Below, in pieces: positions 8,094 through 23,303 of a DNA stretch of 32,000 nt. A model generated the notes under the pieces. That model was not told where the DNA came from. It did not search any database and was given only the letters and a program-made list of their open reading frames with translations. The translations under genes were made by a program, and so were the position numbers. This DNA is from Candidatus Saccharimonadota bacterium (GTDB lineage Bacteria > Patescibacteriota > Gracilibacteria > BD1-5 > UBA2023): positions 180,001-212,000 of the forward strand of contig BAAFHK010000001.1 of assembly GCA_042852035.1 (NCBI GenBank), read 5' to 3'. The first letter of the stretch is position 1. Each line of letters begins with the position of its first letter.

Positions 8094-8134
8094 TATTGGA
8101 ATTCCTCTACAATCCAGGAATTTTTTCTTTATAC

Positions 8135-8211
8135 GGGCGTATAGCTCAGCTGGTTAGAGCGCAGCACTGATAATGCTGAGGTCCCTGGTTCAAGTCCAGG
8201 TACGCCCACCA
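8135..8211 (+). tRNA. tRNA-Ile(GAU): tRNA-Ile (anticodon GAU), CCA encoded
   Basis: Acceptor GGGCGTA/TACGCCC, anticodon stem CAGCA/TGCTG, loop C-T-GAT-A-A, T-loop TTCAAGT. Confidence 0.9.
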
Positions 8212-8223
8212 TTTGTTTTTTTT

Positions 8224-8300
8224 CGGAGACTGGCGCAATTGGCTAGCGCACATGCTTTGGGAGCATGGGGTTGCGAGTTCGAGTCTCGCGTCTCCGACCA
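8224..8300 (+). tRNA. tRNA-Pro(UGG): tRNA-Pro (anticodon UGG), CCA encoded
   Basis: Acceptor CGGAGAC/GTCTCCG, anticodon stem CATGC/GCATG, loop T-T-TGG-G-A, T-loop TTCGAGT. Confidence 0.9.
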
Positions 8301-8355
8301 TTTGGTTTCTTAGATTCGTTTCCCTAGATCGCCCTTGCAATGCAAGAATAATTTT

Positions 8356-8430
8356 GGCGCTATCGTCTAGTGGTTAGGACAGCGGGTTTTCATCCCGTAA
8401 ACCGGAGTTCGATTCTCCGTAGCGCTACCA
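8356..8430 (+). tRNA. tRNA-Glu(UUC): tRNA-Glu (anticodon UUC), CCA encoded
   Basis: Acceptor GGCGCTA/TAGCGCT (G1-U72), Glu-type short D arm GTCT..GGAC, anticodon stem GCGGG/CCCGT, loop T-T-TTC-A-T, T-loop TTCGATT. Confidence 0.85.
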
Positions 8431-9103: not shown

Positions 9104-10585
9104 TTAATCGAGCAACTTACTCATGTAATAGTCCACGGGTGCATAATCATCTGTGATTCTTGGAAGATCATCGAGAATAGCTCACGTCCAAATAGTTGAG
9201 AGCATATTTTTTATATAAGGATCATGAGAATTAAGGTGAAAGCTATGAGGATCTTTGAGTCCAATAAGGATGATATTTTGCATGAGATTTCCATCAGTTT
9301 GACTTGAAGTTGGAAATACTATAACCTCAGGAAATATATCTTTAAAAGTATGATACTCCGAACGGAAGAACTCTCAGGTCTCACCATCAAGCGAAGAAAT
9401 TAAATTTAGGATGAGAACTCCACTTTCAGTAAGGCTATCATATTGTTTTTGTATTGCTTCACTGGTAGTTAGTTGGTATGGAATTGAGAACCAAGAGGTG
9501 AATGCATCACCAAATATAGCATCATATTTGGTAGAAGTTTTATTGAGATAAACTCTTGCATCTTCATGATATATTTTAAGTCTTGGGTCCTCCTTGAGAA
9601 AGAAGTATTGTTTTGCAACTTCTGTAATTCAAGGATCTATTTCAACTACATCTATGGTTTTTCATGAATAGGTATTAAGATATTCTTTTGGGAAAGAGTA
9701 TCATGCCCCACCTATCATGAGTGCATGTTGAAAATCTGGAAAAAAATGTCGAATGAGATGATAGTATTCAGTATAATGATTAATGAGCCTATTTGATTCA
9801 AGAGACATAGACGAGTGATTTTCTACGTTTATTTTTAGCATCCGAACTCGTTCGTTCAATCTTGGATTCATTCCCTCGATAACTTGCACATGACTATACA
9901 TAGTATCTCTTTCGTCGATTATATTCGGGCTCGCAGAAGTATTTTTATATAACCCAACGAACAAAAGAAATAACGAAAGAGAAATGATTTTAAAATATTT
10001 TTTATCATGAGAATCTACCAAAAGACTGAGTATCCCAAGAATAATAGGAAGAGACGCAAGAATCGTTGATATTCCAAAAGTTGGAATAAGATAGAATCAG
10101 GTAATAAATGTTCCTAGAATACTTCCAATTGTTCAAAGAGCTGACATGTTTCCAATGATTGTGCCAGTTTCCTTTTCTCCAATGAGACGAAGTTTTAATG
10201 CGTATGGTGAAATCATCCCGAGAAAGACACTTGCAGGAAAAAAGAGAATCATCGCTGCAATTACTGATCATATCCGAATACTATGAATAGTAGCAGTAAG
10301 ATATCCTAGAAGAGGAATTCGAATAATATAAGTAATAGCTATAGAAATGCTTGCGAGAAGTAACATACTTGAGAGTATCGCTTTTCGGGCATCTTTTTTG
10401 TCTGCAAGTTTTCCTCAGAGAGAATACCCTAGGGAAAGGCTCGCAAGTATTATTCCAATCATCGCTGTCCAAACAAAAATTGATGTTCCATAGTAAGGTC
10501 AGAGAACTCGAGCTCACACAACCTCGTACGTAAGTACTACGAAACCAGAAATAAAAACAGTGACTTCAAATATTTTTTTATTCAT
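9104..10585 (-). CDS. 493-aa spermidine-synthase-like (PABS/class I SAM-MTase fold) protein fused to an N-terminal polytopic membrane domain
   Basis: ATG 10583-10585, TAA (rc) 9104-9106. I checked every in-frame triplet over 9104-9703 and found no TAA/TAG. The N-terminal ~190 aa are hydrophobic. The C-terminal part reads ...ALMIGGAGYSFPKEYLNTYSGKTIDVVEIDPGITEVAKQYF...YDAIFGDAF.... Confidence 0.75.
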
Positions 10586-10681
10586 GCAATGATTATCCTT
10601 ATTTTGTTTATGAAATCAAAACATATAAGCTTTTTTATTTTTTAAAACTCGGTATACTCGGTATCTATAGATAGTTTGACT

Positions 10682-11338
10682 ATGAAAATGCTCCCTCTCC
10701 TGATTTTCATCTGTGTCTTTTGTTTTTCAACTTGCTCGAAAATAGAGGGGAATAGTGTCGAAAAATGAAAGAGAAGTTCTTCGGGTACTATACTTGCTCT
10801 CGGGGATTCTCTTACGGCATGATACTGACTTCCTCAATCTGAAAGTTATCCTTCACAGCTAGAAAAGAAATTAAATGATAATTCGTACAATTATAGAATC
10901 ATAAATGCATGAATTTCATGAGATACAACTGCATGACTTCTCGCAAGGATAGACTGGGTACTTGAGGGAGGCGCTCCATCAGTTAGTATACTTTGCATAG
11001 GCTCAAATGATGCCTTTCAATGAAAGCCAGTAGAGGAAATCGAAAGAAATATTCGTACAATTATAGAACGAATACAGTCCAAAAATATACCAATACTTTT
11101 TGCCTGAATGAAAGCACCTCTGAATCTTGGTCCTGAGTATGCAACATCTTATGAGTGAATCTTTCCAAAGATTGCAAAAGAATATAATATTGCATATATA
11201 CCATTTTTACTTGAGTGAGTTGCTCTTAATCCCGAATTGAATCAGGAAGATCGTATTCATCCTACGGCATCATGATATGCGGTGGTTACAAATACTGTCT
11301 ATAATGCACTTATAAAAAATAACCTTATTTTCAAATAG
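10682..11338 (+). CDS. SGNH/GDSL hydrolase lipoprotein (TesA/arylesterase-like)
   Basis: Signal plus Cys (FCFSTCS). Block I LALGDSLTAGYGL (two of the Gly are TGA, at 10820-10822 and 10826-10828). Block II NAGISGDTT. Block III GSND. Block V DRIHP. TAG 11336-11338. Confidence 0.85.
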
Positions 11339-11339
11339 C

Positions 11340-11963
11340 ATGGAGCAAGTCAATATATTTCCAGGATATCAGATACTCATAACCCATATAAGTGACTGAG
11401 ACATGAGGGACGTGCAGAACTTTCCTCACATTATACGTTCAGTGCCTCAAGTGCATGGCACTGAAATTGTAGAATTTCACGGAAAACCAGATGAGAGAAT
11501 TTCAGGAGTGGATGGTATATATACCAAAATTCCTAATGTGAGTATTGGCGGACTTTCTGCTGACTGTCCTGTTATTCTTTTTATGTGAAGGGGTGAAATT
11601 GCCGCAGTTCATAGCTGATGGCGTGGCACAAAAGCTCATATTATTAGAAATGTAGTTCCATTTTTTGAAAATACTCCCCTTAGTGAATTAAAGGTGTATA
11701 TTGGTCCACATATTCAGAAGAACTCATATGAAGTGCGCGAGGACTTTTTTATAAATTTCCCAGAAACGTATATAGAAAAGATTAATGATAAGTTTTATTT
11801 TGATATAGAAGCCTATCTTGTTGATGACCTTATTTTAATGGGGATAAAAAGAGAAAATATTTATTCGCACGGAGCAGATACTCTTACGAAAGCTTATTAC
11901 TATAGCTATAGGCGGGATGGGATGATTTGAGATGGATGTATTTCTCTTAAAATGATTTTTTAA
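11340..11963 (+). CDS. pgeF: PgeF/YfiH family (DUF152, Cu-oxidase_4) purine nucleoside phosphorylase / peptidoglycan editing factor
   Basis: Motifs QVHGTEIV, SADCPVILF, AVHSGWRGT and YYYSYRRDG, in frame with track fragments 11403-11588 and 11694-11930. TAA 11961-11963. Confidence 0.8.
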
Positions 11964-11966
11964 ACT

Positions 11967-12629
11967 ATGATTACTCTGAAGCATATTGCAAAAACCTATA
12001 TTTCAAGGGGTGAAAAGGTAGAGCTTTTTCAAGATCTTTCTTGGGAAATCCAAAAATGATCGTGGGTTGCTCTCATGGGGGCAAGTTGAGCTGGAAAATC
12101 TACTCTTTTATCGCTTATTGCAGGGATACAAAGTCCAGATGCCTGAGAAATATATCTTTCTGATACAAACATTACTGATTTTACTCGCGATGCAATGACC
12201 GAATATCGCGGAAAGCATATTGCTTTTATTTTTCAGGCCTTTGAGCTCATTCCGAATCTTACCGTGAGTGAAAATATCGACCTCGTTTTGGATATCTCTA
12301 AAGCAGAAAGGAGATACGAGTCGGAAGTAATACTTGAAAAAGTGTGACTGAAATGAAAGGGGAATCGCTATCCGAATGAGCTTTCTTGAGGGGAACAGCA
12401 ACGAGTCGCTATCGCTCGAGCCTTTGTTTCTAAAGTTCCGTTTCTCTTTGCAGATGAGCCAACGGGGAATCTTGATGAAAAAAATGCAGAAAAAATCATG
12501 AGCCTTATCCGAGATCTCCATGAGGAAACAAAAAATACCATCATTATGATTACTCATGATCCATGAGTCGCGAGCCATGCAGATGCTATTTTTCGACTTT
12601 CATGAGGTACTTTAATGAAAGATAAATAA
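11967..12629 (+). CDS. ABC transporter ATP-binding protein (LolD/MacB/FtsE-like)
   Basis: Walker A GASGAGKST (TGA 12087-12089 is the 4th residue). Q-loop FIFQAF. Signature LSGGEQQR (TGA 12387-12389). Walker [14 protein letters not shown]-loop ITHD. TAA 12627-12629. Confidence 0.9.
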
Positions 12630-12631
12630 AT

Positions 12632-15010
12632 ATGTATACCCTCTTCACTCGCATTATCCTTTCGAATTGGCGATCTATACTCGTTCTCTTTCTTGTTCTC
12701 ATCTTTTCTGGCACGAGTTTTCTCACGCTCAGAGAGGTTACGACGAATGTTGATGCTTTTGTGATTTCGAAAACAAAACCCCTCTTTTGAGCTGATATTC
12801 GTATCTCAGTGCGCAGTTATGCGAGTGGGGATATTTTCCCGATGATTGCACCGCTTCTCGTATGAGAGCAATTTCAGGTGAGTGAAAGGAGAGAGTTTTC
12901 GACGACCCTTTTTGATCGTGAAGGGAAGACCTGACTCCTCCAGGTTGTCGCCTATAGTGGGAGTTATCCACAGCGGGGAATACTCGAAACAGATCCTCTG
13001 AGAGAGTGAGGAAGTCTTCCTCGTGTCGCGGCCACTCCTGGACTCATCGAGAAATTCGCGAGTGGTGAGAAGCTCACCCTTGATGGCAGGCTCCTCGAAA
13101 TTACTCACTCGATCAAGGAATCGAGTGACCTCGGATTTTCTCTCGGAACAGAGAATCATCTCCTTATTCTCCCGAGTGAACTCCTCCTCGGATCTTCGCT
13201 CCTTTCTTCCTGATCTCGACTCGATCAGGATCTCCTCCTCTCGTTTAGAGATGAATGAAGGACGAAGATTATTGCTGAAAAAATCAAAGAAGTACTCCCA
13301 GAAAATATCTATAGAGTGCGTACATTCGAAGAGCGAACGGAGAGAAATCTCGATACCGTCGACGCACTTACTGACTATATCACGCTCATCCTCCTTGTCT
13401 CAAGTATTTTTGCATTCATAATTCTCCGCTCCGCTCATGAAGGATTCTATGAGAGCCTCGCTCGTACTCTCCGTGTCGTCGAAATCCTCGGACTTACTCG
13501 GAGGCGAGAGCAGATGCTCCTTCTCTGGCTCTATGGATCTATTTTTCCGCTCTCATTTCTCGTATCGATCGGATTTTCATATGTGATTCTTACTATGATT
13601 CGCAGCTTTCCAGAGGCGAGTGATTTTACCTTTTATATAGCTACTATACCAGAGGCTCTTATCCTCCTCCTTCTTCTCGTGGTAATGGCGTGGTTTCCTA
13701 TTTGGTGGAAGCTCGGGAAAGATGAAAATAAATGAACAATTAAAGGACTCAAATCGTTCATTTTTAATTATCTCGTCCTCGATCGACTCCTCCCATTTTT
13801 CCTCGGACTCGTTGTCCTCTTTCTTCTTTTTTCTGACTGGAAATTCTCCCTCTTTGTATGAGCTGGAGCTGCACTGTTCTTTCTTATCTTCGGATATCTC
13901 CTCGGTCTCATCTATCGAGCCATTTTTTCACTTTCGAAGTGACTCAGAGGATGATATTTTCCTTTCTATGACGCGATTCGTACTCTTGTGCGACCCCTCA
14001 CTCCGACCATCCCGATTACGATTTCTCTCGTCTCTATCACAGTATTTTTCCTCGTTTTTGTGAGTTTTTCCCTTGCATTTCGATCGAAACTTCAGATTGA
14101 CTCGACGAATACTGCCAATATCTACGCCATTAACATCCTCGAAGGGGATAAGGAAAAAATCGAAGCCCTCAAGAGTGAAAATTCCCTCATGTATGATATC
14201 CTCAGAGCTCGCGTCATACAGATAAATGGAAACACTCTGGAAAAACACTTCTCGACCGATCGAGTGAGTGGGGAATTCACGAGAGAGTTCAATATCACGA
14301 CCACCCCTCTCGAGAATCGTATCCTCTCCTGAAAGAAAGTGATAGGGAAGTGAGAAGTATCCATCGATAATGACTTCAGTAAACGCATGAACCTCTCCAT
14401 CTGAGATCGAGTGACCTTCCTCCTCTCGGGGCGAGAGGTTACGCTCACGGTGGCAAATATCCGCGAATCCATCCGTGAAGGATTCCGACCATTTTTCTAT
14501 TTTTCTTTTGATCCAAACGAGTTCAGAAATGCTCCGCGCACCTACTTTCTCGCGGACAATGCTCCAGATACTGAAGCATGGAAAAAGTCTGTTCTTGCTG
14601 CTTCCTGACCGCACGTGACCTTCATCGATATCGAAAGTGTCCTCAAGATCGTGAGAGACATTTCTGCGAAAGTCTTCTCGATTATCGGACTCTTCTTCGC
14701 TATAGTATCTCTCTTCGCACTCGGGGCAATTATATCTTTCTTTACCCGACTGAGACCAATCGAAGAAATAAAACATAAACTCTATCATCTCTTTTGAGCG
14801 AATAAAAAAGAGATACAAACTTCACTTCGATGAGTTAGAATGGGTATTTTTTGAGTATCCTTTATTCTTTCGGCAATCCTTGGGTTCATTCTTTCATTTT
14901 TAATACTCTCTCGTTCAGGGTTTTTTCGATTTTCTGTTGGTGATTTTTTCTTTCTACTCAGTACGGCACTCATTCTTTATATTATATTAATAGTATCCCA
15001 GAAAAAATAA
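12632..15010 (+). CDS. 792-aa ABC transporter permease with two FtsX domains (YbbP-like)
   Basis: Frame-2 ORF joining track fragments 13316-13735, 13988-14332, 14411-14608 and 14615-14797. 17 in-frame TGA by my count. N-terminal TM then ...KPLFGADIRISV.... Two 3-4 helix FtsX-like hydrophobic blocks (about 13380-13720 and 14640-15000). TAA 15008-15010. Confidence 0.8.
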
Positions 15011-15066
15011 CTTGCTTTCATTTCATTATTTCATAAAATGATAAAGTGATCACATCCAAAGATACT

Positions 15067-15390
15067 ATGACTCCACTTGAGCAAATACAAAAAGAGATGT
15101 TTGAGAAAGAGGATATGCTCGGGGAAATGGCAGATGTATTCGGCGCACTCGCTTCTGACTGCCGACTCGAAATCATCTACCTCCTCCTTCGAGTAGATTC
15201 TCTCCCTTCCTGAGAAATAGGTCGCCTCACGAACTGTACTCCATCACAGACTTCCCAGTACCTCGCGAAGATGTACGATGCGGGAATACTCAGGAAGCAC
15301 AGAACCTGGAAGCAAGTCGAGTACTCACTCGATAAGAGCGATCCATTTGTACAAGGGATTATCTCTATCCTCTCGATGTATATGAAATAA
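15067..15390 (+). CDS. ArsR/SmtB-family winged-helix transcriptional regulator (107 aa)
   Basis: ...MADVFGALASDCRLEIIYLLLRVDSLPSGEIGRLTNCTPSQTSQYLAKMYDAGILRKHRTWKQVEYSL... is the typical ArsR HTH layout. TAA 15388-15390. Confidence 0.8.
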
Positions 15391-15513
15391 GGAAATGTGC
15401 AAAAACTTTGAATCTCTTCGTCAGAAAAAATTATTTCTCAGTTACTTACCCTAAAAGTAAGCTCCTATCGAAAAATTTTTCCTTCCTCGACCTTCTTGTT
15501 TTTGCACATTTCC
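15391..15513. repeat. 123-bp intergenic element bounded by a perfect 16-bp inverted repeat
   Basis: GGAAATGTGCAAAAAC (15391-15406) and its exact reverse complement GTTTTTGCACATTTCC (15498-15513). Inside are a small hairpin CTTAC-CCTAAAA-GTAAG and the 12-nt palindrome GAAAAATTTTTC. Confidence 0.8.
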
Positions 15514-15545
15514 GATCCCTCGCTCAGGTTCTATAACTTACACGT

Positions 15546-16271
15546 ATGACACTATTTTTTCTTGCATTCTTTGCGGGTGTTTTAACCATCCTTGCTCCCT
15601 GCGTCCTGCCAGTATTGCCAGTCGTCCTCGCAGGCTCACTCACTGAGCGGCAGAGGTGGTATCCCTACATGGTGACGCTCTCACTCGCTCTCTCGGTTGT
15701 CCTCTTTACGGTCATCCTGAAGGCAACGACCACACTTATCTCGATTCCACCATCCTTCTGGAAGGTGCTCTCTGGAGGGATTCTTATCGCGCTCGGGCTC
15801 GTCTACTTCTTCCCACATGGGTGGGTATGGGTCGTGACTCGTCTCGGACTCGGTCGTTCAAATACCTCACTCGATAAAGTTCAAGACATAAGGAATCCTC
15901 TTATGAGGGCTATCGCAACGGGGGTAGCACTTGGTCCAGTATTCTCGACTTGTTCACCGACCTATGCCTTCCTCCTTGCGACCGTATTTCCCGTATCACT
16001 CATCGCAGGGATTTGCTATACGCTCATCTACGCCCTCGGGCTCTCTCTTATGCTTACCCTCATTTCGGTCGTTTGAAGGTCGATAATTGCCCGTTTTCGA
16101 GGAATCGCGGATGAAAAGGGATGGTTCAAGCGTTCCCTAGGAGTTATATTTCTCCTTATAGGAGTCGCGATTATCGCGGGATTTGATAAAAAAGTCGAAA
16201 CATGGGTACTTGAGAGGTTCGATGTGAGTGTGTGGGAACAGACGATATTTGATTCAGTGATGGATTGGTAG
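15546..16271 (+). CDS. ccdA: CcdA/DsbD-family transmembrane thiol-disulfide electron transporter (241 aa)
   Basis: MTLFFLAFFAGVLTILAPCVLPVLPV... (first conserved Cys in the APC motif), second Cys in GPVFSTCSPTY, six hydrophobic helices, one in-frame TGA (16074-16076). TAG 16269-16271. Confidence 0.8.
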
Positions 16272-16341
16272 ACGTTTCAAGTGGAAGGAAGCATGCTTCC
16301 TTGTCTTGAGATTTCTTCTCATTTTTTCTAACTTTTTTCTT

Positions 16342-17178
16342 ATGAAAATATTTTTTCTCCTCGCGAGTATCACCTTGCTCGCAAGCTGTACTTCTCAGAA
16401 GGACGTCACAACTCAGGTAGAAAGACCCCCAACTCCTTCTGTCACGGAGGTGCTATCTGCCCCAGCTGATGCGGCTGCGAAATTTGCACAGACAGAAGCT
16501 ATCGTCAAAGCCATGAAAAATGACGAGATGAATATCGTAAAGACGCTCTATCCAGATCTCATTCTCACCAAGAGCATCAAACGATGAGATCCTGAGATAC
16601 TTGCGATGATGGGGGATGAAGACTGGTACTATTCACCATCCTACGATGTGACGGTCGTCGTTTGTAAGGATATGAATACTCCGGCTCATGTTTTTGCCTG
16701 AAAAACACTCGGTGCTGATGAAACAGCAAAAATCCGAAAGATGCATGAAGATACGATGAAGATGATGGACGCGAGTGGTAGTATGATGATGGATCACTCG
16801 ATGCCTGGTGATATGATGCAAGATAATATGAAACCAGAAGTCCCAGTTGCACCAGAAGCAAAAATGATGAAGCCAACAGGATATATGAACTTTGATGAAA
16901 CAAAAGTGAAAGAGGCCCTCGCAAGCGGTCAGAAGGTAGCACTTTTTTTCCACGCGACGTGGTGTCCGACTTGTAAGGCTCTTGATAAATCCATTAATGC
17001 AGAACTTTCAAGCATTCCAAGCGATGCCCTCATCGTCAAAGTCGACTATGATACGAGTGCGGAGATGAAGCAAAAGTATGGCGTCACCTCACAGCATACG
17101 ACCGTACTTATCGATAAAGATATGAATCTCATATCCAAAAAGATAGGGGCACGAAATGTAGCTGAAGTATTGAATTAG
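16342..17178 (+). CDS. 278-aa thioredoxin-fold lipoprotein (Etrx/TlpA-like) with internal Met-rich tract
   Basis: Lipobox LLASC. WCPTC active site in ...VALFFHATWCPTCKALD.... Met-rich segment at 16741-16887. Two in-frame TGA. TAG 17176-17178. ATG 16342 preferred over the TTG at 16306 used by the track. Confidence 0.8.
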
Positions 17179-17194
17179 TTTTGTTGTATCCTCG

Positions 17195-17219
17195 GGATTC
17201 TGAGAAGAACTCAGAATCC
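17195..17219 (+). other. perfect 10-bp stem-loop between the thioredoxin lipoprotein gene and msrAB (no U-tract)
   Basis: GGATTCTGAG (17195-17204), loop AAGAA, CTCAGAATCC (17210-17219). Confidence 0.6.
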
Positions 17220-17243
17220 TCATGGATATAATCAACTCATTCT

Positions 17244-18653
17244 ATGAAATACACTCCAACATCGGAACCAAAACATTTCCACAAGCAAATTTTTATTCTT
17301 GTAATAATTGGTTTACTCGGATGAATCTTCTATTTTTTAAATCCAAAGAATATGGAAAATCATAATAATTCTTCCTCTGTCCCATTAGGAGAGAGTGTTT
17401 TTTCTCATGCCTATTTTGCCTGAGGTTGTTTCTGGTGTATGGAAGGGATTTTCGAAGCACAGACCGGCGTCATCGAGGCGGTTTCCGGGTACGCCGAAGG
17501 GGATGCGAGTGATGCCAATTATGATGCCGTCTCGAGCGGCATGACGAGGCACCGAGAAGCCGTCGAAGTGAAGTATAATCCTGAGCTGATATCTTTCGCG
17601 GCTCTCGTGGATCTCTTCTACACGCAGATAGATCCGACCCAGGCTGATGGGCAATTCGCTGATATCGGATTTCGCTATACGACGGCGGCGTACTACCAAA
17701 ATGATGAAGAGAAATCTGTCATCGAATCCGCGAAAGCAACCCTCGAAGCTTCAAAAAAGTATGATAAGCCGATTGCGGTGCAAACGGTTCCGTTTACGAC
17801 CTTTTTTCCAGCCGAGGAATATCACCAGGACTACTATAAAAAATCCGCTTTCAGGTATAGTCTCTACAAAAAGGGAAGTGGACGAGCAGGATTCATCGAG
17901 AAAAATGGTGAAGTCGGCGCGACCCTCTCCCAGTACCGAGACTATGATGCGACGATTCTTCCGACGCTCAAGGATAAGAAAATTCTTCTCTTTTTTCATG
18001 CGGATTGGTGTCCGACCTGTCGAAATTTCGAGAAACAAATCAGTGAATGAAACCTTCCGAGTGATGTGATAATACTCAAGGTGGACTATGACACGGCGAC
18101 CGAACTCAAGAAAAAATATAGCATCCTCTCGCAATCAAGCTGGGTACAAATCGATACCACAGGGAAAATGTATAAGCGTTGGCTCGGGAAATCGAACCTG
18201 AAAGATATCCTCGACGAGACACTTTCTCCGAAGGACATGCTTTCTGAGAAACTCACCCCTCTCCAGTATGAAGTGACGCAGATGGGTGGTACTGAGAAAC
18301 CGTTTGACAATGAATACTGGGATCATCACGAAGCAGGGATCTATGTCGATATCGTCGATGGGACACCACTTTTTTCTTCTCTTGATAAATTCGATTCTGG
18401 AACAGGATGGCCGAGTTTTACCCGTCCAATCGATGAGGCGCTCGTGAGTGAACATGCTGATGACAAATTCGGGATGATTCGTACTGAAGTGAAAAGTACG
18501 GGCGGATCGCATCTTGGTCATGTCTTCGATGATGGTCCGAGTGGTTCTGGAGGACTCAGATACTGTATCAATTCTGCCGCACTTAGGTTTGTGCCTGTGG
18601 CAGATCTCGAGAAAGAGGGATATGGGAAGTATAAAGAATTGTTTGAAAAATAG
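17244..18653 (+). CDS. msrAB: membrane-anchored MsrA-thioredoxin-MsrB fusion (peptide methionine sulfoxide reductase A/B, 469 aa)
   Basis: - N-terminal TM helix [17 protein letters not shown].
- Msr[14 protein letters not shown] (TGA 17421-17423).
- ...[10 protein letters not shown].
- Internal Trx [15 protein letters not shown].
- Msr[46 protein letters not shown].
- Joins track ORFs 17439-18050 and 18066-18653. Confidence 0.9.
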
Positions 18654-18654
18654 T

Positions 18655-18686
18655 AAAAAATACCCACAGATGTGGGTATTTTTTAA
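18655..18686. terminator. bidirectional hairpin terminator (msrAB / convergent esterase gene)
   Basis: TACCCAC (18661-18667), loop AGAT, GTGGGTA (18672-18678), flanked by an A-run and a T-run. Confidence 0.8.
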
Positions 18687-18696
18687 AAATGAATTT

Positions 18697-20004
18697 CTAT
18701 AATCCTCTTATCCATTCAGTCATTGTATCCCCAGCTCCTATCGGCCAACTATGAGGGTCTCCTCAATATGCTGAATATCCCTTACAATAAATAACAGGAT
18801 TTCCACTCGAACAATCTTTCCACTTTTCACAAGAAATATTCCCTATCTGGATTGTCTCCTTTTCATTTCCGCAAAGATTGATAGATTTCATTTTTGATTC
18901 AGTTGCACGAGCAGTACTTGGTGGAGAGAGTGTATCGTTCTCATTTTGATAGATGAGAGCTGCCGTCGGAGTGTTGTTGCAGATTGAGCTATAACCTCCT
19001 CCCCCAACAATCGACATGGAACGAAAAATATCTCCCCGAGTACAGGCAAGTTTCGATGCAAACCATGCTCCAAGAGAATGTGCTACTATATGAATATTAT
19101 CACGATCTATGCATTGTTTATCAGTTACATCACGTAGGATTGTATCGACAAAGTTGATATTTTCTTCATTTGACCAACTATAAGCATTTCCATTTGGAAG
19201 TCATGCAGGATAAGCAACTATAAAATCACTTTTATTTTCGAGTCACATATAATTTTGCACCATGAGATTACTATTCGTACGCCCATGAATGGCAATAATA
19301 AATTTTGCTGGATTTGTGCTCGAATAGCTTCTTGGAACTGAGAGTATATAATTTCGAGTCTTTTCTCCTACAATAACTTGATAAGTTCCGCTCGTGAGAG
19401 GGTTTGTATTGGTACACCCTTTTGAGATATTCGTGAGAGGATTTTTATTCTTACTATATTCTCTTATACGCAGTATCATATCAGCTGCTTTTCCTCGAGT
19501 CATAAGAGTGTGTATATTGTAACTCGATGTATCGAGAATATTATTGGCACCAGCGAGATTTTGATAGGTTGTATACCAGGGACTTCCATTTTCCGGAGCA
19601 ATACCATAGAGTCGTAGAGACATAGCAAGCGCTTCTATGACAGTTACTGGACTGTTTGGTTTGAAGGTTCCATCGGAGAAACCTTTTACTACCCCGAGTT
19701 TTACTGCTTCACAGACGTATGGCTGATACCACATAGATCGCTTGATATCCTTGAAACACTCGATATCTTTATCAAGATTCTCACTATTAATATTTTTACT
19801 TCGCAGTAAGACTTTCAGTAGTTCTGCTCGAGTGATTGTATTATCAGGTCAGAATTTCCCATTACTATATCATGTGATGATTCCTTCATTCAAGAGAGTG
19901 TTTATGGAATCTCTATAAAATGAAAGCTCAGTATCTCTAAAGTCTAGAGCCAAAGAATAAGAGGGAATGCATAGAAGTAAGAAAAATAAAACAACTTTTT
20001 TCAT
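18697..20004 (-). CDS. 435-aa secreted protein: two SLH-like domains plus an alpha/beta-hydrolase esterase (PHB-depolymerase/LpqC-type)
   Basis: - Signal MKKVVLFFLLLCIPSYSLA.
- SLH-like FRDTELSFYRDSINTLLNEGIITGYSNGKFGPDNTITRAELLKVLL and FKDIKRSMWYQPYVCEAVKLGVVKGFSDGTFKPNSPVTVIEALAMSL.
- Esterase part RNYILSVPRSY...KFIIAIHGRTNS...IHIVAHSLGAW...GGDPHSWP.
- I checked the in-frame triplets over 19021-19260 and 19741-20004 and found no TAA/TAG. Confidence 0.8.
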
Positions 20005-20007
20005 AAA

Positions 20008-20034
20008 TAAAAAATCCCCTCGTGAGAGGGGAAT
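20008..20034 (-). terminator. rho-independent terminator of the 20044-20499 gene
   Basis: On the minus strand: TCCCCTC-TCAC-GAGGGGA followed by TTTTTTATTT. Plus-strand stem at 20015-20021 / 20025-20031. Confidence 0.7.
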
Positions 20035-20043
20035 ACTTATGGA

Positions 20044-20499
20044 CTATTGAACATCGAGAATTTGAGCCATAGGAGATTCAAGCTCAGTAGAAGGAGTCTT
20101 ACATACCTTCGCACTTGCTCGGAAAGTATCCCATGCAGCTTTTCGTGCTGTGCGGAATGCTTGACGTGCAGACTTTGCTGTAGCATCCCAAGCTGACCAT
20201 GCAGCTTCGCGAGCAGTCTTACGTTCAGTTCTATCAGCTGTAGACCATACTGCATCGAGAGCCTTTGCTCGAACATCGAGTCCGGCGAGATATGCAGCAG
20301 AGAGATTACTGTAAGCCAATCGAACTAATGATTCGCGAGTTGCTACTGCAGAACGAATACATGTAAAATCAACAGTCTTTCCACTACCAGCTGAACCAGT
20401 ACTTAAAAGGCTCGGTGTACCTTCACTTGCTTGAACAAAAGGAGTGAGTGTAGAGAGCGCAATAAGAGAGACAACACCAATAGAAAGAAACTTTTGCAT
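20044..20499 (-). CDS. 151-aa secreted Ala/Arg/Trp-rich helical-repeat protein, unknown function
   Basis: Intact ORF in either code, TAG stop. Signal MQKFLSIGVVSLIALSTLTPFVQA. Three ~18-aa repeats, each centred on a Trp (AKALDAVWSTADRTERK / AREAAWSAWDATAKSARQ / ARKAAWDTFRASAKVC). Two Cys. Confidence 0.65.
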   Translation of the reverse strand: MQKFLSIGVVSLIALSTLTPFVQASEGTPSLLSTGSAGSGKTVDFTCIRSAVATRESLVRLAYSNLSAAYLAGLDVRAKALDAVWSTADRTERKTAREAAWSAWDATAKSARQAFRTARKAAWDTFRASAKVCKTPSTELESPMAQILDVQ

Positions 20500-20827
20500 A
20501 AGTATAAAAGTTAAGAATATGCGAAAGAGAGTATAGCTTAAAAATTTATAAATTAAAGCCCCTCTACGAAATTTTCACTTGATATTCAGAGAGTCTTCAC
20601 AGATAGCTAAGATATTTTTTCCTATATCATTTGATAGAATACAAGTAAACGGGGGTATTTATAAAATCGGTATTTTTACTATTTATTCTTACATTACCCT
20701 ATTTCTTCTCGAACAATTTCCCATTTGAATATTGACAAAATTTAAATTTTAATTAATTTATTAATACAAACACATCCACTCCACCAAAACAGAGGAGTGA
20801 TTCATTTCAACCGTTCCAGGAGAACCC

Positions 20828-21340
20828 ATGATCCGTCGTCTGATTGCCTTGTTCCTGATCGCACTCCTCGCTGCCTGTGGCGGTGGAACAACTTCCGATA
20901 CATTCGAGGCTCCCCAAGTGGGAGTCATCGGTTCGGGATTCCTCGGGCAAATCGGGGTGGTCCGCATCGAAATTGGTGGCGCAGAACTCCCTCCCGACAG
21001 TATCTCTGTCGGAATCTGGGGGCTGACCAATTCCCATTCCGGGATGGTCGTCTGTGCCCGAGAAATCGGGTCCAGCCAATACTGCGGAGAGGCCAACACC
21101 ACTACCCCGTACTACATCCCTTCAGCAGGGCCCGTGATCCTCGACATCTATCGGCTGCGTTCGATTGCCAATGGCTGGAGTCCGTGGTCTCCGAGTCGAT
21201 TCGAGATCATCTTCTATCGGCCTGGTACGGGCTGGTACGTGGGTGATCAATTCGGATTTGCCTTCGACCGTATCACCTTCGGCGATCCGCCCGATCAAGT
21301 AACGGTGTCGTACAACACGCCCGTCTTGGTCATTCGCTGA
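20828..21340 (+). CDS. 170-aa GC-rich lipoprotein, unknown function; ORF closes with TGA (would run to TAA 21758-21760 under code 25)
   Basis: AGGAG 5 nt upstream of the ATG. Lipobox LLAAC-GGG. 22 Gly codons, none TGA. Sampled lines give 55-63% GC. A hairpin terminator lies about 45 nt after the TGA. Confidence 0.6.
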   Translation: MIRRLIALFLIALLAACGGGTTSDTFEAPQVGVIGSGFLGQIGVVRIEIGGAELPPDSISVGIWGLTNSHSGMVVCAREIGSSQYCGEANTTTPYYIPSAGPVILDIYRLRSIANGWSPWSPSRFEIIFYRPGTGWYVGDQFGFAFDRITFGDPPDQVTVSYNTPVLVIR

Positions 21341-21382
21341 CCTATCGACTCACCCCCTTCATCACGATGTGGGTGAGCACCA

Positions 21383-21417
21383 AAAAAAGAAACGCCCCTC
21401 ACGAGGGGGCGTTTTTG
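21383..21417. terminator. bidirectional GC-rich hairpin terminator between the lipoprotein gene (+) and the MFS gene (-)
   Basis: A-run 21382-21388, stem ACGCCCC (21392-21398) / GGGGCGT (21406-21412), then T5. Confidence 0.75.
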
Positions 21418-21425
21418 CATTTGTA

Positions 21426-22727
21426 TTATCCGAGATAACTCTTCGAAAGCGCGCGATAGCTCCGAGAGAGAAATGCAAAGAGTGTCATGCCAATACCGAG
21501 AAGTCAGGCTACGACGAAGACCACGGCAATCGCGCGATCACTTCCTGTACCCCACCACTCTCACACGATCAGGTCCATCCCACCACCTGCCACCCATGGA
21601 GTGACGAGGAACTGCGTGAGTGGTCAGACGAGAAAGGCCGTGAGCGGAGAAGCGATATTCTCCATCGATTGCCCAAATCCGAATACTCGACCCTGTCGTT
21701 CGAGGGGGACGACTTTCTGAAGTATGGTCTGCTCGCATGCTTCCGCAATTGGTCCGATAATCATCCAGAGGAAAAATCCAACTCCGACGAACCAGATAGA
21801 TGCCTTGAGGGGGAAGATGATACAGAGAATCCACGCTGCGAGATTGATAATAAGGAGAGACTTCACAGGATTTATCCCGAGTCCGAACTTCGCGACGAAC
21901 GACCCCCCGATGATAAATCCGATACTCGTGATGGCGAGCACGATACCCCAGACCTCGACTGATACGAGCGAGAGTCCATAGGCGTCCATGAGTGCCATGA
22001 AGACTCCTCCGAGGAAGTTATTCCACATAGCGAAGAATATCATCGCAAAAAGTCAGGAAATCCCAGAGATGACCTTTATCGTTCACTTGATATCGATTTT
22101 TTTCTCATCTTCGTGTCGGTCGTCAAGGTGCGATTCATCTGGGAAATGGAGTGTCATGAGATGGACTATGACCGCGATCATCGAGGCGATACTGATTCCC
22201 ACTGCCCAGTCCATCCCGAGTCTTCCGACGATAAGTCCTGAGAACACGGATACCACCGAGAAGGTAAGTCCATTCACGACTCCGATCTGCCCATTCGCCT
22301 TCGCTCGACCCTCCTCAGGGATGAGCATGGTGACCATGGTCGAGAGGGCAATCATGCGGATATTGCCGACCACGATCCCGAGCATGGATACGAGGATAAA
22401 TACCCAGAGCCACGCACTCGATATGTCCCCCCAGGTTTGGGTAGGGAGGAGGATAAGCATCATGAATCCTATACTATAGAAAAAAAGTGATACCACGGAC
22501 GAGCCGAGCATGACGAACTTTTTCCTGTGGTGATCGACGAGTGAGCCGAACCAGAGACCAGAGAGGAGATTTAGCACGAGATAAAATCCTCCGAGCACTC
22601 CCGTGACGAAGACGGAGTGGGTCGTGAGATACGACCAGAAGGTGATTGCAAACCAGAGGAGCATATTCGTGAATCCTGCGATGGCGGTGTTGGTGAGGAT
22701 ATGAGGGAAGAGCTTTTGGGATTTCAT
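21426..22727 (-). CDS. MFS transporter (433 aa; DHA3/macrolide-efflux-like)
   Basis: Joins track ORFs 22083-22727 and 21624-22043, plus a C-terminal piece read through TGAs at 22083, 22053, 21624, 21561 and 21504. About 12 hydrophobic helices. TAA (rc) 21426-21428. Confidence 0.8.
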
Positions 22728-23279
22728 TTAGTTTTTTAATCTTGAAGCAAGAAACGAGATCCATGCCATAGCAAGCAGGACAATGAGTGCCATGAGAGGG
22801 ATTGTCACGAAGCCAAATGTGAGAACTCCGTTATGGTCCGTACAGGCAGGGAGGAGGCCACCCTGTTCGCAGGGGAGAAATACCGGGAGCTTCAAAACCC
22901 ATCCGATGAAGTGGTAATAGTAGTGGTAGCAGGCGAAAAAGAGTCATCCGAGAGAGAGGAGTCATGTGATGATATGATTGCCTCGTATTTTTTTCCAGAG
23001 AGTGACGATGATGATGATATCGATCGGGAAGATAAAAATCCGCTGCCACCAACAGAGGATACATACCGGGAGCTCATAGTAGAGCTGATAGGTCATCGCA
23101 AATGTGGTCGAGAGGATAGCGATCGTACCGATTACTTTCATAAAGAGAAAATAATCAACTTTTGCCAGTGCTGTTCGAGCCTTTTTCGATACGATAAACG
23201 CTATCATGGAGAGAAGAGTCAAACTGAGAATCGAGAGGACTCACACCGAAAGAATCGTAGAATAAACAGAGATTTCCAT
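22728..23279 (-). CDS. dsbB: DsbB/BdbC-family disulfide bond formation protein (183 aa)
   Basis: Four TM helices. First Cys pair ELPVCILCWWQRIFIFP. Second pair LPCEQGGLLPAC. Stop TAA 22728-22730 abuts the ATG of the MFS gene (TAAATG). Confidence 0.75.
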
Positions 23280-23303
23280 AGAAAGAGTGTAAAAAGTAAA
23301 GTG

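What the first reader, a model, noticed from the sequence alone, without database searches (positions are those of the whole stretch)
20770..21420. A lipoprotein gene that looks written in the standard code inside a UGA=Gly genome
- The 170-aa ORF 20828-21340 (lipobox LLAAC) has 22 Gly codons, none of them TGA.
- It has an AGGAG Shine-Dalgarno 5 nt upstream, whereas most neighbouring starts have none.
- My sampled 60-nt lines give 55-63% GC, against 28% in the upstream intergenic region.
- It closes with TGA, followed by two hairpins and a GC-rich terminator.
- If TGA is decoded as Gly, the frame continues to TAA 21758-21760. That gives 310 aa, with the extra 140 aa antisense to the MFS gene.
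- This is the signature expected of a recently imported gene from a standard-code, higher-GC bacterium. Such bacteria are plausible hosts or prey of an episymbiotic CPR cell. It raises the question of how, or whether, the gene is terminated correctly.
Basis: partly seen in the sequence, partly recalled or inferred. Interest (0 to 1): 0.7.

Follow-up and report, generated by a model that had tools for sequence, protein, structure and literature searches.

The report
Hypervariable Gracilibacteria lipoprotein ending in UGA
This is not a freshly imported foreign gene but a native, fast-swapping surface lipoprotein of Gracilibacteria (bacteria that read UGA as glycine) which never uses UGA inside the gene and keeps UGA exactly where a stop codon belongs, and that pattern has no known explanation.

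Summary
The interpretation, a recent import from a standard-code bacterium, is not supported.

The gene belongs to a family I found only in TGA-recoded Gracilibacteria-type contigs, always at the same syntenic locus. There are ten distinct alleles from independent assemblies. They share 27-81% protein identity, while the flanking MFS genes share 69-95%. Allele relationships disagree with flank relationships, and DNA homology breaks at the ORF borders. So this is a recombining, hypervariable surface-lipoprotein cassette. No standard-code or phage homologue was found.

All alleles keep the following:
- a TTGACA promoter and a 5'UTR hairpin;
- the only proper Shine-Dalgarno in these genomes;
- the strongest avoidance of A-ending codons seen in these loci;
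- 0 internal TGA among 188 Gly codons;
- a 3' hairpin plus an intrinsic terminator.

The conserved C-terminus is followed by TGA in eight alleles, TAA in one and TAG in one. It is never followed by a sense codon, although synonymous sites look well mixed. The other clearly real gene families in these loci end at TAA/TAG.

So the site is constrained to the standard stop set inside a UGA=Gly genome. My most likely outcome is Gly decoding with run-on into the terminator and ribosome rescue. A true stop-like role for UGA is not excluded.

The parts
20732..20759 (+). Candidate sigma-70-type promoter: -35 TTGACA (20732-20737), 16-nt spacer, -10 TAATTT (20754-20759)
   Evidence: TTGACA and a TAnnnT hexamer 16 nt downstream line up across the alleles in the upstream alignment. 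Coordinates were checked. The consensus scan did not call it because the -10 hexamer matches only 3 of 6. Function is inferred.
20777..20799 (+). Conserved 5'UTR hairpin: CACTCCA pairs with AGGAGTG and so sequesters a first SD-like AGGAG
   Evidence: RNAalifold on 7 alleles gives 7 pairs, one of them with compensatory changes (CG/UA/UG). The sequence is conserved across alleles that share only about 30% protein identity.
20818..20822 (+). Shine-Dalgarno AGGAG, 5 nt upstream of the ATG
   Evidence: It is the only AGGAG-type SD among 22 gene starts in the window. Only 9 of 133 ORFs across the loci have an SD-like motif. Four of them are this family and a fifth is its distant relative P0013. A fifth family allele, the window's own, was missed there by the greedy ORF picking. 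The motif is conserved as CAGGAGA in most alleles.
20828..20878 (+). Signal peptide with lipobox LLAAC (Cys17), followed by a GGG linker
   Evidence: MIRRLIALFLIALLAAC|GGG. A16-C17-G18-G19-G20 are invariant in the family alignments.
20828..21337 (+). Coding sequence of the 170-aa lipoprotein: a beta-sandwich surface domain with a conserved Cys76/Cys86 pair
   Evidence: AlphaFold2 model on a 9-sequence alignment: pLDDT 84.7, pTM 0.77, all-beta, with the last strand at residues 167-169. dN/dS is 0.27-0.32. There are no Pfam, NCBIfam, PHROG or PADLOC hits for the family.
21338..21340 (+). Terminal TGA at the conserved C-terminus of the family (the anomaly)
   Evidence: The homologous position carries TGA in window, L001, L003, L009, L014, L016, L020 and L024, TAA in L013 and TAG in L015.
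21349..21377 (+). Hairpin H1, starting 8 nt after the TGA. It contains a second in-frame TGA at 21374-21376
   Evidence: Single-sequence folds have z-scores from -3.3 to -7.1. In the four close alleles two pairs show compensatory changes. A hairpin at this place exists in all ten alleles, including the TAA and TAG alleles, with unrelated sequences. It is unique in the window.
21388..21416 (.). Intrinsic (Rho-independent) terminator. An A-tract before it and a T-tract after it make it bidirectional between the lipoprotein and MFS genes
   Evidence: Terminator scan: 12-pair stem with 6 GC pairs and a T-run on the + strand, and also called on the - strand. It is present in all alleles.
21341..21760 (+). 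Nominal code-25 run-on frame: 140 further codons to TAA at 21758-21760. It is not conserved as protein
   Evidence: One-nt indels between alleles break the frame. The next in-frame TAA/TAG lies 20 to about 300 codons away depending on the allele.
21426..22727 (-). Convergent MFS transporter gene (context; used as the GC3-matched native comparator)
   Evidence: Pfam MFS_1, E = 2e-26. It has 5 in-frame TGA and GC3 0.63. Orthologues share 69-95% identity.
20044..20499 (-). Divergent 151-aa secreted Ala-rich protein p151 (syntenic anchor of the locus)
   Evidence: It lies next to the lipoprotein gene in window, L001, L003-L008, L015, L020 and L024. It was used to find alleles independently of the lipoprotein's own sequence.

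Best explanation
The ORF is a native, lineage-restricted surface lipoprotein gene of Gracilibacteria: a lipobox, a GGG linker and a ~150-aa beta-sandwich domain. It occupies a fixed locus as a recombining, hypervariable allele cassette.

Shown:
- At least five deeply divergent allele types replace one another between genomes by recombination. The break points lie at the ORF borders.
- All alleles keep the same expression frame: TTGACA promoter, 5'UTR hairpin, strong SD, conserved signal peptide, 3' hairpin and intrinsic terminator.
- All alleles share one codon dialect. It prefers C/T-ending codons (CGT/CGC, GGT/GGC, ATC, TTC, TAC) and avoids nearly all A-ending codons.
- The functional protein ends at the TGA. 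The predicted fold is complete there, longer relatives and the TAA/TAG alleles end there, and the sequence beyond is conserved only as RNA structure.

Inferred:
- The codon dialect looks like strong translational selection on a highly expressed gene. It accounts for the GC-richness and for most of the absence of internal TGA, so no foreign origin is needed.
- In the cell the UGA is most probably decoded as Gly by the code-25 machinery. Ribosomes then run about 25 codons through H1 into the terminator and reach the 3' end of the terminated transcript without a stop codon. They are released by ribosome rescue, making this a de facto non-stop gene comparable to arfA.

Unexplained: selection keeps this codon within {TGA, TAA, TAG}. 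UGA must therefore do something here that a sense codon does not, whether a pause, an uncoupling of the ribosome from RNA polymerase, or a termination-like event.
For: Native and syntenic:
- Ten distinct alleles lie in recoded contigs with the same neighbours. One contig is named Candidatus Gracilibacteria.
- TGA aligns with Gly in 157 of 227 cases in the flanking genes.

Hypervariable cassette:
- Lipoprotein identity is 27-81% against 69-95% for MFS, and the two are incongruent. For L009/L015, MFS is 95%, SLH 88% and the lipoprotein 33%. For L001/L020 the values are 86%, 88% and 35%.
- DNA identity between L001 and L020 falls from 70-93% to 35-46% across the CDS and returns to 66-98% right after it.

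Functional protein:
- dN/dS is 0.27-0.32.
- The AlphaFold2 model has pLDDT 84.7 with its last strand at residues 167-169.
- Distant relatives P0010, P0011 and P0013 carry the domain at their extreme C-terminus.

Conserved expression signals.

Codon dialect:
- The family correlates with MFS at r = 0.54, while MFS and SLH correlate at 0.86. ATA is 0.03, CGA 0.08, AGA 0.03 and GTA 0.07.
- The TAA-terminated allele has the lowest A3 of 128 ORFs.

Stop-set constraint:
- TGA x8, TAA x1, TAG x1 at a C-terminus aligned within about 1-3 residues. Invariant Gly columns mix GGT, GGC, GGA and GGG, so synonymous sites are well mixed.
- The clearly real gene families in the same loci (about a dozen by my count) end at TAA/TAG at, or within about six columns of, a common alignment position.

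Run-on:
- There is no in-frame TAA/TAG before the terminator in 7 of 8 TGA alleles.
- The tail frame is broken by 1-nt indels.

Precedent: arfA as a programmed non-stop mRNA, from my own knowledge, not checked here.
Against: - High expression is inferred only from signals and codon bias. No ribosomal-protein or other reference gene of this lineage was available for comparison.
- A highly expressed gene with no functional stop would be costly. A single G-to-A transition (TGA to TAA) would fix it, yet only one allele type has made that change.
- If the tail were harmless, sense codons should also occur at this site, and none does.
- General avoidance of A-ending codons predicts about 4-6 internal TGA in 188 Gly codons, not 0 (my estimate, P about 0.01).
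- Whether these genomes carry tmRNA/SmpB or ArfB, or lack RF2, could not be checked. The absence of RF2 is taken from the literature on the clade (PMC8629427, PMC6851277).
- The TGA alleles represent only about three independent deep lineages (A/B, D, E).
Confidence: 0.5

Rival explanations
1. One reading: the gene was recently acquired from a standard-code, higher-GC bacterium (host or prey). It still carries the donor's GC content, SD, TGA stop and terminator, and is now mis-terminated.
For: The composition, SD, TGA-free ORF, TGA end and terminator are all real. Codon usage is unlike any neighbour.
Against: - Ten alleles sit at one syntenic locus of recoded genomes at 27-81% identity.
- Synonymous sites are well mixed among alleles.
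- No homologue outside such contigs turned up in 5.8 billion or 1.84 billion proteins, IMG/VR or INPHARED.
- No mobility genes flank the gene.
- The promoter, 5'UTR and signal peptide are shared by all alleles.
Confidence: 0.04
2. Ancient single import. The ancestor of this Gracilibacteria group took up the cassette (promoter, SD, ORF, TGA, terminator) from a standard-code donor. The foreign features persist by inertia or linkage, and the alleles diversified afterwards.
For: The whole package looks like a textbook standard bacterial gene. The surrounding 12-23 kb redox/MFS region is also GC3-rich, which is compatible with an old island.
Against: - Inertia cannot hold a neutral TGA, an SD and a codon dialect through synonymous mixing of this degree.
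- GC3-matched neighbours have acquired about 10% TGA.
- No donor family was detected.
- This reading explains the origin at best, not the maintenance.
Confidence: 0.12
3. UGA really does terminate translation in this gene. UGA would then have a context-dependent dual meaning (Gly or stop) in a code-25 bacterium, perhaps helped by the nearby hairpin, the closeness of the mRNA 3' end, or a residual or atypical release activity.
For: - The site is restricted to TGA/TAA/TAG and is never a sense codon.
- TGA has not been replaced by TAA in three deep lineages, so it appears about as fit as TAA.
- Internal TGA is absent, 0 of 188.
- No backup TAA/TAG has been selected before the terminator.
- Context-dependent stops are known in ciliates and trypanosomatids (my own knowledge).
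Against: - No mechanism is known in bacteria without RF2.
- Other genes in the same genomes read through up to 75 TGA.
- H1 also occurs after the TAA/TAG alleles and differs in sequence and spacing, so it is not a TGA-specific signal.
- No shared sequence context around the TGA is evident across allele types.
Confidence: 0.15
4. The gene is kept readable for a standard-code translation state. One version: it is a sentinel that is terminated properly only when an infecting standard-code phage supplies RF2, so it would act as an anti-phage or exclusion surface protein. Another version: it is expressed in a standard-code host cell, in the manner of Agrobacterium T-DNA genes.
For: - This would explain all the features together: no internal TGA, a retained terminal TGA, canonical promoter/SD/terminator, and hypervariability typical of an arms race.
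- Standard-code-compatible phages predicted to infect Gracilibacteria exist and avoid in-frame TGA (PMC10746230).
Against: - There is no evidence that such phages carry RF2. That paper says they mostly rely on stop codons other than TGA.
- The family has no PADLOC or PHROG hit and no phage homologue.
- DNA or RNA transfer from CPR bacteria into hosts is unknown.
- TAA would serve equally well in a standard-code setting, so retention of TGA is explained only by the sentinel version.
Confidence: 0.06
5. The UGA encodes selenocysteine and H1 is a bacterial SECIS element.
For: A hairpin starts 8-11 nt after the UGA. The locus is rich in redox genes: Msr, thioredoxins, CcdA, DsbB. In the four close alleles a second in-frame TGA lies 9-12 codons later.
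Against: - The position aligns with TAA/TAG in two alleles and with the protein end in distant relatives, never with Cys.
- H1 is also present after the TAA/TAG alleles and is not conserved in sequence.
- Rfam gives no hit.
- No Sec machinery is expected in such reduced genomes. That point is from my own knowledge and was not tested.
Confidence: 0.02
6. Assembly chimera or contaminating fragment inserted into a Gracilibacteria contig.
For: There is an abrupt GC step at about 20770.
Against: The same arrangement recurs in more than ten independent assemblies from JGI, ENA, Logan and NCBI. Both flanks are recoded.
Confidence: 0.01

Closest known systems
Variable surface lipoprotein loci (e.g. 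Mycoplasma Vsp/Vlp/Vsa families, Borrelia Vsp/Vlp) and allelic surface-antigen cassettes
   Same: The 5' region and the lipoprotein signal peptide are conserved, while the mature region is highly divergent. Alleles are exchanged by recombination and disagree with the genome phylogeny.
   Different: There is a single copy per locus in all sequence held here. I saw no silent cassettes, invertible promoters or repeat tracts. Variation is between strains or genomes, not a demonstrated within-cell switch. The fold and sequence are unrelated to those families.
Horizontally acquired genes in stop-codon-reassigned genomes (C-terminal extension after loss of stop meaning)
   Same: The ORF ends with a codon that the resident code reads as sense, and the nominal frame runs on into non-conserved sequence.
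   Different: The state is old, family-wide and under selection rather than a transient relic. No donor is known.
arfA-type programmed non-stop mRNA (an ORF that runs into a hairpin or terminator, with expression tied to ribosome rescue). From my own knowledge, not checked here.
   Same: Under code 25 the reading frame passes through a hairpin and an intrinsic terminator with no in-frame stop in 7 of 8 TGA alleles.
   Different: In arfA the truncated product is a rescue factor and the logic is autoregulatory. Here the product is a secreted lipoprotein. Neither truncated transcripts nor dependence on tmRNA were shown.
Code-11-compatible phages predicted to infect Gracilibacteria/Absconditabacteria (PMC10746230)
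   Same: In-frame TGA is absent although the host uses it heavily as Gly.
   Different: Those phages are reported to rely mainly on stop codons other than TGA. This is a chromosomal gene that ends in TGA, and it has no phage homologue.
Context-dependent stop/sense codons in ciliates and trypanosomatids (Condylostoma, Blastocrithidia). From my own knowledge.
   Same: One codon would mean an amino acid inside genes and termination at the gene end. That is the pattern the evolutionary data mimic here.
   Different: Those systems are eukaryotic, with eRF1/PABP and 3'-end proximity. Nothing comparable is known in bacteria and none is demonstrated here.

Membership tests
Bacterial lipoprotein (Lgt/Lsp substrate) | N-terminal signal peptide with a positively charged n-region, a hydrophobic h-region and a lipobox [LVI][ASTVI][GAS]C | tested here: met
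   MIRRLIALFLIALLAAC, with an invariant A-C-G-G-G across ten alleles.
Bacterial lipoprotein (Lgt/Lsp substrate) | The genome encodes Lgt and signal peptidase II | not testable with these tools
   Only 32 kb of this genome is available. Other ORFs in the loci also carry lipoboxes (LTSC, LTAC, LSAC), which suggests a working pathway.
Recently transferred foreign gene (genomic islet) | Atypical base composition and codon usage relative to the genome | tested here: met
   GC is 57% against 40% for the window. The codon-usage correlation is 0.17-0.54 with native gene sets.
Recently transferred foreign gene (genomic islet) | Absent from the syntenic locus of related genomes | tested here: not met
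   It is present at the same locus in nine further distinct recoded genome types.
Recently transferred foreign gene (genomic islet) | Closer homologues in a plausible donor lineage than in relatives | tested here: not met
   There are only 11 hits in 1.84 billion representative proteins. Every hit whose DNA I inspected lies in a recoded contig, and nothing was found in the phage collections.
Genetic code 25 genome (UGA = Gly) | In-frame TGA in conserved genes aligns with Gly in homologues | tested here: met
   157 of 227 aligned residues are Gly and none is Trp. One ORF carries 75 in-frame TGA.
Genetic code 25 genome (UGA = Gly) | tRNA-Gly(UCA) present and RF2 (prfB) absent | not testable with these tools
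   Neither gene lies in the window or the fetched loci. The tRNAs found are Gly-TCC, Ile, Pro and Glu only. Absence of RF2 is taken from the literature on the clade (PMC8629427).
Selenoprotein gene with bacterial SECIS | UGA followed within about 10-40 nt by a stem-loop | tested here: met
   H1 starts 8-11 nt after the UGA in the four close alleles.
Selenoprotein gene with bacterial SECIS | Homologues carry Cys (or Sec) at the UGA position and the protein continues beyond it | tested here: not met
   The position aligns with TAA/TAG and with the C-terminus of distant relatives. The tail is not conserved as protein.
Selenoprotein gene with bacterial SECIS | SelA/SelB/SelC/SelD present in the genome | not testable with these tools
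Programmed non-stop mRNA (arfA-like) | The ORF runs into a hairpin or terminator with no in-frame stop before the transcript end | tested here: met
   Under code 25, 7 of 8 TGA alleles have no in-frame TAA/TAG before the terminator. Composition alone predicts this absence.
Programmed non-stop mRNA (arfA-like) | Transcripts actually end at the hairpin, and the product is handled by tmRNA or an alternative rescue factor | not testable with these tools
   This needs 3'-end mapping, proteomics and the rest of the genome.
Variable surface lipoprotein / allelic cassette locus | Conserved 5' region and signal peptide, divergent mature region, and an allele tree that disagrees with the flanks | tested here: met
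   For example L009/L015 have MFS 95% against lipoprotein 33%.
Variable surface lipoprotein / allelic cassette locus | Several paralogous or silent copies in one genome that allow switching | tested here: not met
   A family HMM finds one copy per locus in all sequence held here. Whole genomes were not searched.
Intrinsic (Rho-independent) terminator | GC-rich stem-loop followed by a U-tract | tested here: met
   Positions 21388-21416: 12 pairs, 6 of them GC, then TTTTT, called on both strands. The equivalent structure is present in all alleles.

The most novel reading that the evidence does not exclude
In this gene family UGA works as a stop-equivalent inside bacteria that otherwise read UGA as glycine.

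One version is context-dependent termination, which would be a first dual-meaning UGA (Gly/stop) in bacteria. The other is that the gene is deliberately kept in standard-code grammar so that it is correctly made only in a standard-code translation state. Such a state could arise when an infecting phage supplies RF2, or in a host cell. Under the second version the hypervariable lipoprotein would be a code-switch sentinel or effector.
Probability: 0.2. Interest if true: 0.92.

Novelty: new variant of a known kind. Interest (0 to 1): 0.68.

Why it matters
Codon reassignment is usually treated as all-or-none. Once UGA means Gly and RF2 is gone, UGA should carry no stop information. Here a single gene family in such genomes has obeyed standard-code rules through deep allele divergence. 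It has no internal UGA, and its conserved C-terminus is followed only by UGA, UAA or UAG. About a dozen neighbouring gene families behave as expected.

This gives a concrete and testable handle on three questions:
- whether termination-like events can still occur at UGA in code-25 bacteria;
- how ribosome rescue is used in CPR bacteria;
- whether genetic-code differences are exploited in conflicts between Gracilibacteria, their phages and their hosts.

Independently of the UGA question, the locus is a clear recombining, hypervariable surface-protein cassette in an uncultivated episymbiotic lineage. That makes it a candidate determinant of host or phage interaction and a useful strain marker. 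It is also a practical warning for annotation. [quoted passage not shown]

Tried and rejected
- Family libraries: Pfam, NCBIfam, PHROGs and PADLOC give no family for the 170-aa protein.
- Fold search: Foldseek against PDB returns only weak generic beta-sandwich, pilin or adhesin matches (TM 0.3-0.4), so no function can be assigned.
- Rfam: a scan of 20500-21700 gives only sub-threshold, terminator-like hits on the minus strand (Phe/PyrG leaders).
- Phage origin: IMG/VR and INPHARED searches found nothing.
- Wider genome and metagenome scans: the genome scan returned only the known P0004-type locus, and the metagenome scan returned one spurious signal-peptide match (L011).
- H1 as a repeated element: it occurs once in the window and once per locus.
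- Selection to keep the run-on frame open, or for or against backup stops: TAA/TAG are sparse in all three frames downstream, and composition alone predicts their absence before the terminator. The in-frame continuation into the next lipoprotein gene in L001/L020 and L003 therefore looks like chance.
- Frameshifting at the UGA to reach a nearby stop: neither alternative frame has a TAA/TAG before the terminator in the window.
- Attenuator-type alternative pairing between H1 and the terminator: judged by eye only, from the sequences. It is not conserved between allele types.
- Ascertainment bias from code-11 gene calls: P0009 (134 aa) turned out to be a mis-called start, not a TGA-split gene. 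L020 was reached through its neighbour p151 and is also TGA-free. The bias cannot be excluded for the distant relative P0013.
- Antisense ORF 20753-21493(-): rejected as the real gene because conservation, the signal peptide and the confident fold are all on the + frame.
- tRNA-Gly(UCA), tmRNA and RF2: none is encoded in the window or the fetched loci.
Full report
**1. The observation**

The window comes from a genome that reads TGA as a sense codon.
- Allowing TGA as sense raises the summed length of ORFs of at least 100 aa, over all six frames and overlaps included, from 5,936 to 22,695 codons. One 2,042-codon ORF (1234-7362) carries 75 in-frame TGA.
- In the MFS and SLH genes flanking the finding, TGA codons align with Gly in orthologues in 157 of 227 cases and never with Trp. 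The code is therefore code 25.
- A relative's contig is named 'Candidatus Gracilibacteria'.

- The ORF is 20828-21340(+), 170 aa, with lipobox LLAAC, 22 GGN Gly codons and no TGA.
- AGGAG lies at 20818-20822, 5 nt from the ATG.
- The ORF is 57.3% GC against 24.8% in the upstream spacer.
- The ORF ends in TGA at 21338-21340, followed by hairpin H1 (21349-21377) and a bidirectional intrinsic terminator (21388-21416).
- The nominal code-25 frame runs on to TAA at 21758-21760.
- The SD claim holds: none of the other 21 gene starts I checked in the window has an AGGAG-type SD.

Two caveats apply.
- The GC3-rich patch also covers the MFS gene (GC3 0.63, 5 TGA) and the DsbB-like gene (GC3 0.55, 3 TGA).
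- For this one gene, 0 of 22 TGA is not significant against GC3-matched neighbours.

**2. Relatives**

Database searches gave a small family. I fetched the DNA around every member I could. I also reached members through the neighbouring p151 gene, which avoids selecting on the lipoprotein itself.

This yielded ten distinct alleles: window, L001, L003, L009, L013, L014, L015, L016, L020 and L024.
- Wherever flanks are available, the gene sits between the p151/SLH genes and a convergent MFS gene. Sometimes a DUF1554-like lipoprotein lies in between.
- The flanking genes are full of in-frame TGA.
- A profile search of 1.84 billion representative proteins found only 11 hits. IMG/VR and INPHARED gave none.
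- One distant relative whose DNA I inspected (P0013, L025) is also in a recoded genome.
- Recurrence in more than ten independent assemblies rules out a chimera.

**3. It is a recombining hypervariable cassette**

- Between the same genome pairs MFS is 69-95% identical, while the lipoprotein is 27-81% identical and incongruent with the flanks.
  - L009/L015: MFS 95%, SLH 88%, lipoprotein 33%.
  - L001/L020: MFS 86%, p151 91%, lipoprotein 35%.
  - Window/L024: MFS 88%, lipoprotein 31%.
- DNA identity between L001 and L020 is 70-93% upstream and 35-46% from about -35 to +499. It returns to 66-98% immediately after the ORF.
- Conversely, the window and L001 share the allele (80-91% nt identity) while their upstream flanks are only 23-45% identical. 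For that pair dS is 0.41 for the lipoprotein against 1.0 for MFS.
- Alleles therefore move between Gracilibacteria genomes by homologous recombination. At least five deep allele types exist: A (window/L001), B (L003/L009), C (L013/L015), D (L024/L016/L020) and E (L014).
- The gene is functional. dN/dS is 0.27-0.32.
- AlphaFold2 gives a confident all-beta sandwich (pLDDT 84.7) whose last strand is residues 167-169.
- PDB matches are weak and generic, to pilins and adhesins. No curated family matches.

**4. What every allele keeps**

- Upstream: ATATTGACA, then 16 nt and a TAnnnT hexamer, then a 5'UTR hairpin (CCACTCC...GGAGTGG, one compensatory pair), then CAGGAGA 5-7 nt before the ATG.
- Only 9 of 133 ORFs in all loci have an SD-like motif. 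Four are this family and one is the distant relative P0013. The window's own allele was missed by the greedy ORF picking in that scan, and its SD is shown.
- The signal peptide MFRRL...LAACGGGGS is conserved.
- Downstream: a hairpin (sequence variable between types), an A-rich linker, and a GC-rich terminator with a T-tract.
- In the four closest alleles, the stretch immediately after the TGA is conserved in DNA sequence, with two covarying stem pairs in H1.
- Codon usage is distinctive.
  - The family correlates with MFS at r = 0.54 and with AT-rich native genes at about 0.2. MFS and SLH correlate at 0.86.
  - A-ending codons are nearly absent: ATA 0.03, CGA 0.08, AGA 0.03, GTA 0.07, TCA 0.06.
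  - CGT/CGC, GGT/GGC, ATC, TTC and TAC are preferred.
  - The TAA-terminated allele has the lowest A3 (0.09) of 128 ORFs.
- This looks like strong translational selection. Together with the promoter, SD and stabilising hairpins it points to a highly expressed gene. That step is inference.

**5. The UGA problem**

- Internal TGA: 0 of 188 Gly codons in the family, against 38 of 394 in MFS orthologues (p = 2.7e-7) and 31 of 296 in SLH.
- Much of this follows from the general avoidance of A-ending codons. If TGA were depressed as CGA, ATA and GTA are, I would expect about 4-6 TGA, so P(0) is about 0.01 (my estimate).
- The terminal codon is harder to explain.
  - The proteins end within about 1-3 residues of each other in the alignment.
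  - The next codon is TGA in eight alleles, TAA in L013 and TAG in L015.
  - No allele has a sense codon there. Yet invariant Gly columns mix GGT, GGC, GGA and GGG, and within-type dS reaches 1.2-1.3.
  - GGN is never used at this position, although the family otherwise uses only GGN for Gly.
  - The two alleles with canonical stops lack any residue there.
- The site therefore evolves as a stop codon would under the standard code.
- As a control, the clearly real orthologue groups in the same loci (about a dozen by my count) end at TAA/TAG at, or within about six columns of, a common alignment position. None has TGA at the conserved end.
- The sequence beyond the TGA is not protein-coding. One-nt indels break the frame even between close alleles, and tails are unrelated between types.
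- Seven of eight TGA alleles have no in-frame TAA/TAG before the terminator. The next one is 20 to about 300 codons away. Composition alone predicts that absence. I therefore see no selection either for or against backup stops.

**6. Mechanism**

Shown:
- The gene is native, syntenic and allelically hypervariable.
- Its expression signals are conserved.
- The protein's functional end is at the UGA.
- The site is under a stop-set constraint.

Inferred, and my commitment at about 0.5:
- The code-25 machinery inserts Gly at the UGA.
- Ribosomes then run about 25 codons through H1 into the terminator and reach the transcript's 3' end.
- They are released by ribosome rescue. The gene is thus effectively a non-stop gene, for which arfA is the known precedent (my own knowledge).
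- The beta-sandwich domain is unaffected by the junk tail.

This model does not explain why TGA is preferred over sense codons. One possibility is that UGA is decoded slowly enough to uncouple the lead ribosome from RNA polymerase. The terminator could then form, and the convergent MFS gene would be protected from antisense read-through. This is speculation.

Rivals:
- Genuine context-dependent termination at UGA: 0.15.
- An ancient import whose features persist by inertia: 0.12.
- A gene kept in standard-code grammar for a standard-code translation state, whether phage-supplied RF2 or expression in the host: 0.06.
- Recent import: 0.04.
- Selenocysteine/SECIS: 0.02. It is disfavoured because the position aligns with TAA/TAG and never with Cys, and because H1 also follows the TAA/TAG alleles.
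- Chimera: 0.01.

**7. Literature**

- UGA = Gly in Gracilibacteria and Absconditabacteria is established. Two 'Gracilibacteria' species in which UGA could not be inferred as Gly lack the tRNA-Gly(UCA) gene and instead encode RF2 (PMC8629427; PMC6851277).
- Phages predicted to infect these clades are often standard-code-compatible. They avoid in-frame TGA but rely mainly on other stops (PMC10746230).
- In the four papers I read (of those returned by two searches) I found no report of a conserved UGA at stop positions, or of dual-meaning UGA, in code-25 bacteria.

**8. Verdict**

'Recent import from a standard-code bacterium' is refuted. What remains is better defined and stranger: a hypervariable surface-lipoprotein cassette of Gracilibacteria that has kept standard-code grammar (SD, no internal UGA, UGA/UAA/UAG at the end) inside UGA=Gly genomes. 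I rate it a new variant of known kinds (variable lipoprotein locus; stop-less ORF) with an unexplained, testable anomaly, and give it an interest of about 0.68.

Noticed in passing
window 1234-7362 (+): A giant 2,042-codon ORF that looks like a secreted or surface protein. It has 75 in-frame TGA, which is 37% of its Gly codons, and GC3 of 0.23. This is the opposite codon-usage extreme to the lipoprotein in the same window.
   Followed up: partly
window 8018-8430 (+): A tRNA cluster: Gly(TCC), Ile(GAT), Pro(TGG), Glu(TTC). No tRNA-Gly(UCA) or tmRNA gene was found in the window or in any fetched locus.
   Followed up: partly
window ~12000-23300: A GC3-elevated block (GC3 0.45-0.63, against 0.19-0.28 in the more AT-rich window genes). 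It encodes envelope redox functions: a CcdA-like gene at 15546-16271, a thioredoxin-MsrA/MsrB fusion at 17244-18653 and a DsbB-like gene at 22728-23279, plus the MFS gene. The block is syntenic in relatives. The cause of this GC3 heterogeneity is unknown (an old island, biased gene conversion, or expression level).
   Followed up: partly
window 20044-20499 (-) and orthologues: The neighbouring 151-aa Ala-rich secreted protein p151 also shows phylogenetic incongruence. Between L024 and L003 it is 96% identical while MFS is 76%. The recombination hot spot therefore extends beyond the lipoprotein ORF.
   Followed up: partly
L001 ~10200-10945, L003 ~10680-11386, L020, L013 3779-4471: A second lipoprotein (weak DUF1554 match, ending ...GLFYCFAE) lies between the variable lipoprotein and MFS in some genomes. 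It is absent from the window and L009. In L001/L020 and L003 it is in the same frame as the upstream ORF with no TAA/TAG between them, so code-25 gene callers would fuse the two into a 460-490-aa protein. This is probably chance.
   Followed up: yes
all loci, 133 ORFs: Shine-Dalgarno motifs are almost absent from gene starts in these genomes (9 of 133, and several of those are doubtful ORFs). Whether the 16S rRNA keeps an anti-SD could not be checked.
   Followed up: partly
L025 1516-2478 (GCA_964409795.1, CAYPDW010000036.1): The distant relative P0013 is a 320-aa lipoprotein with the domain at its C-terminus, in another recoded genome (GC 38.5%). It has ordinary AT-rich codon usage (GC3 0.34) but still 0 TGA among 30 Gly codons, a GGAGG SD, a TAG stop and a hairpin plus terminator. 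Ascertainment bias cannot be excluded for this one.
   Followed up: partly
family alignment, invariant Arg column (window codon 78): CGA and AGG alternate with CGC/CGT at an invariant Arg. So CGA is Arg here, unlike the CGA/CGG-to-Trp reassignment reported for Absconditabacteria and suspected for CGG in some Gracilibacteria (PMC8629427).
   Followed up: no
window 21349-21377 and L001/L003/L009 equivalents: The H1 loop region contains a near-palindrome (CATCATGATG, or CATCACGATG in the window) that is conserved between allele types A and B. Its function is unknown, and it supplies the second in-frame TGA in three of the four alleles.
   Followed up: no
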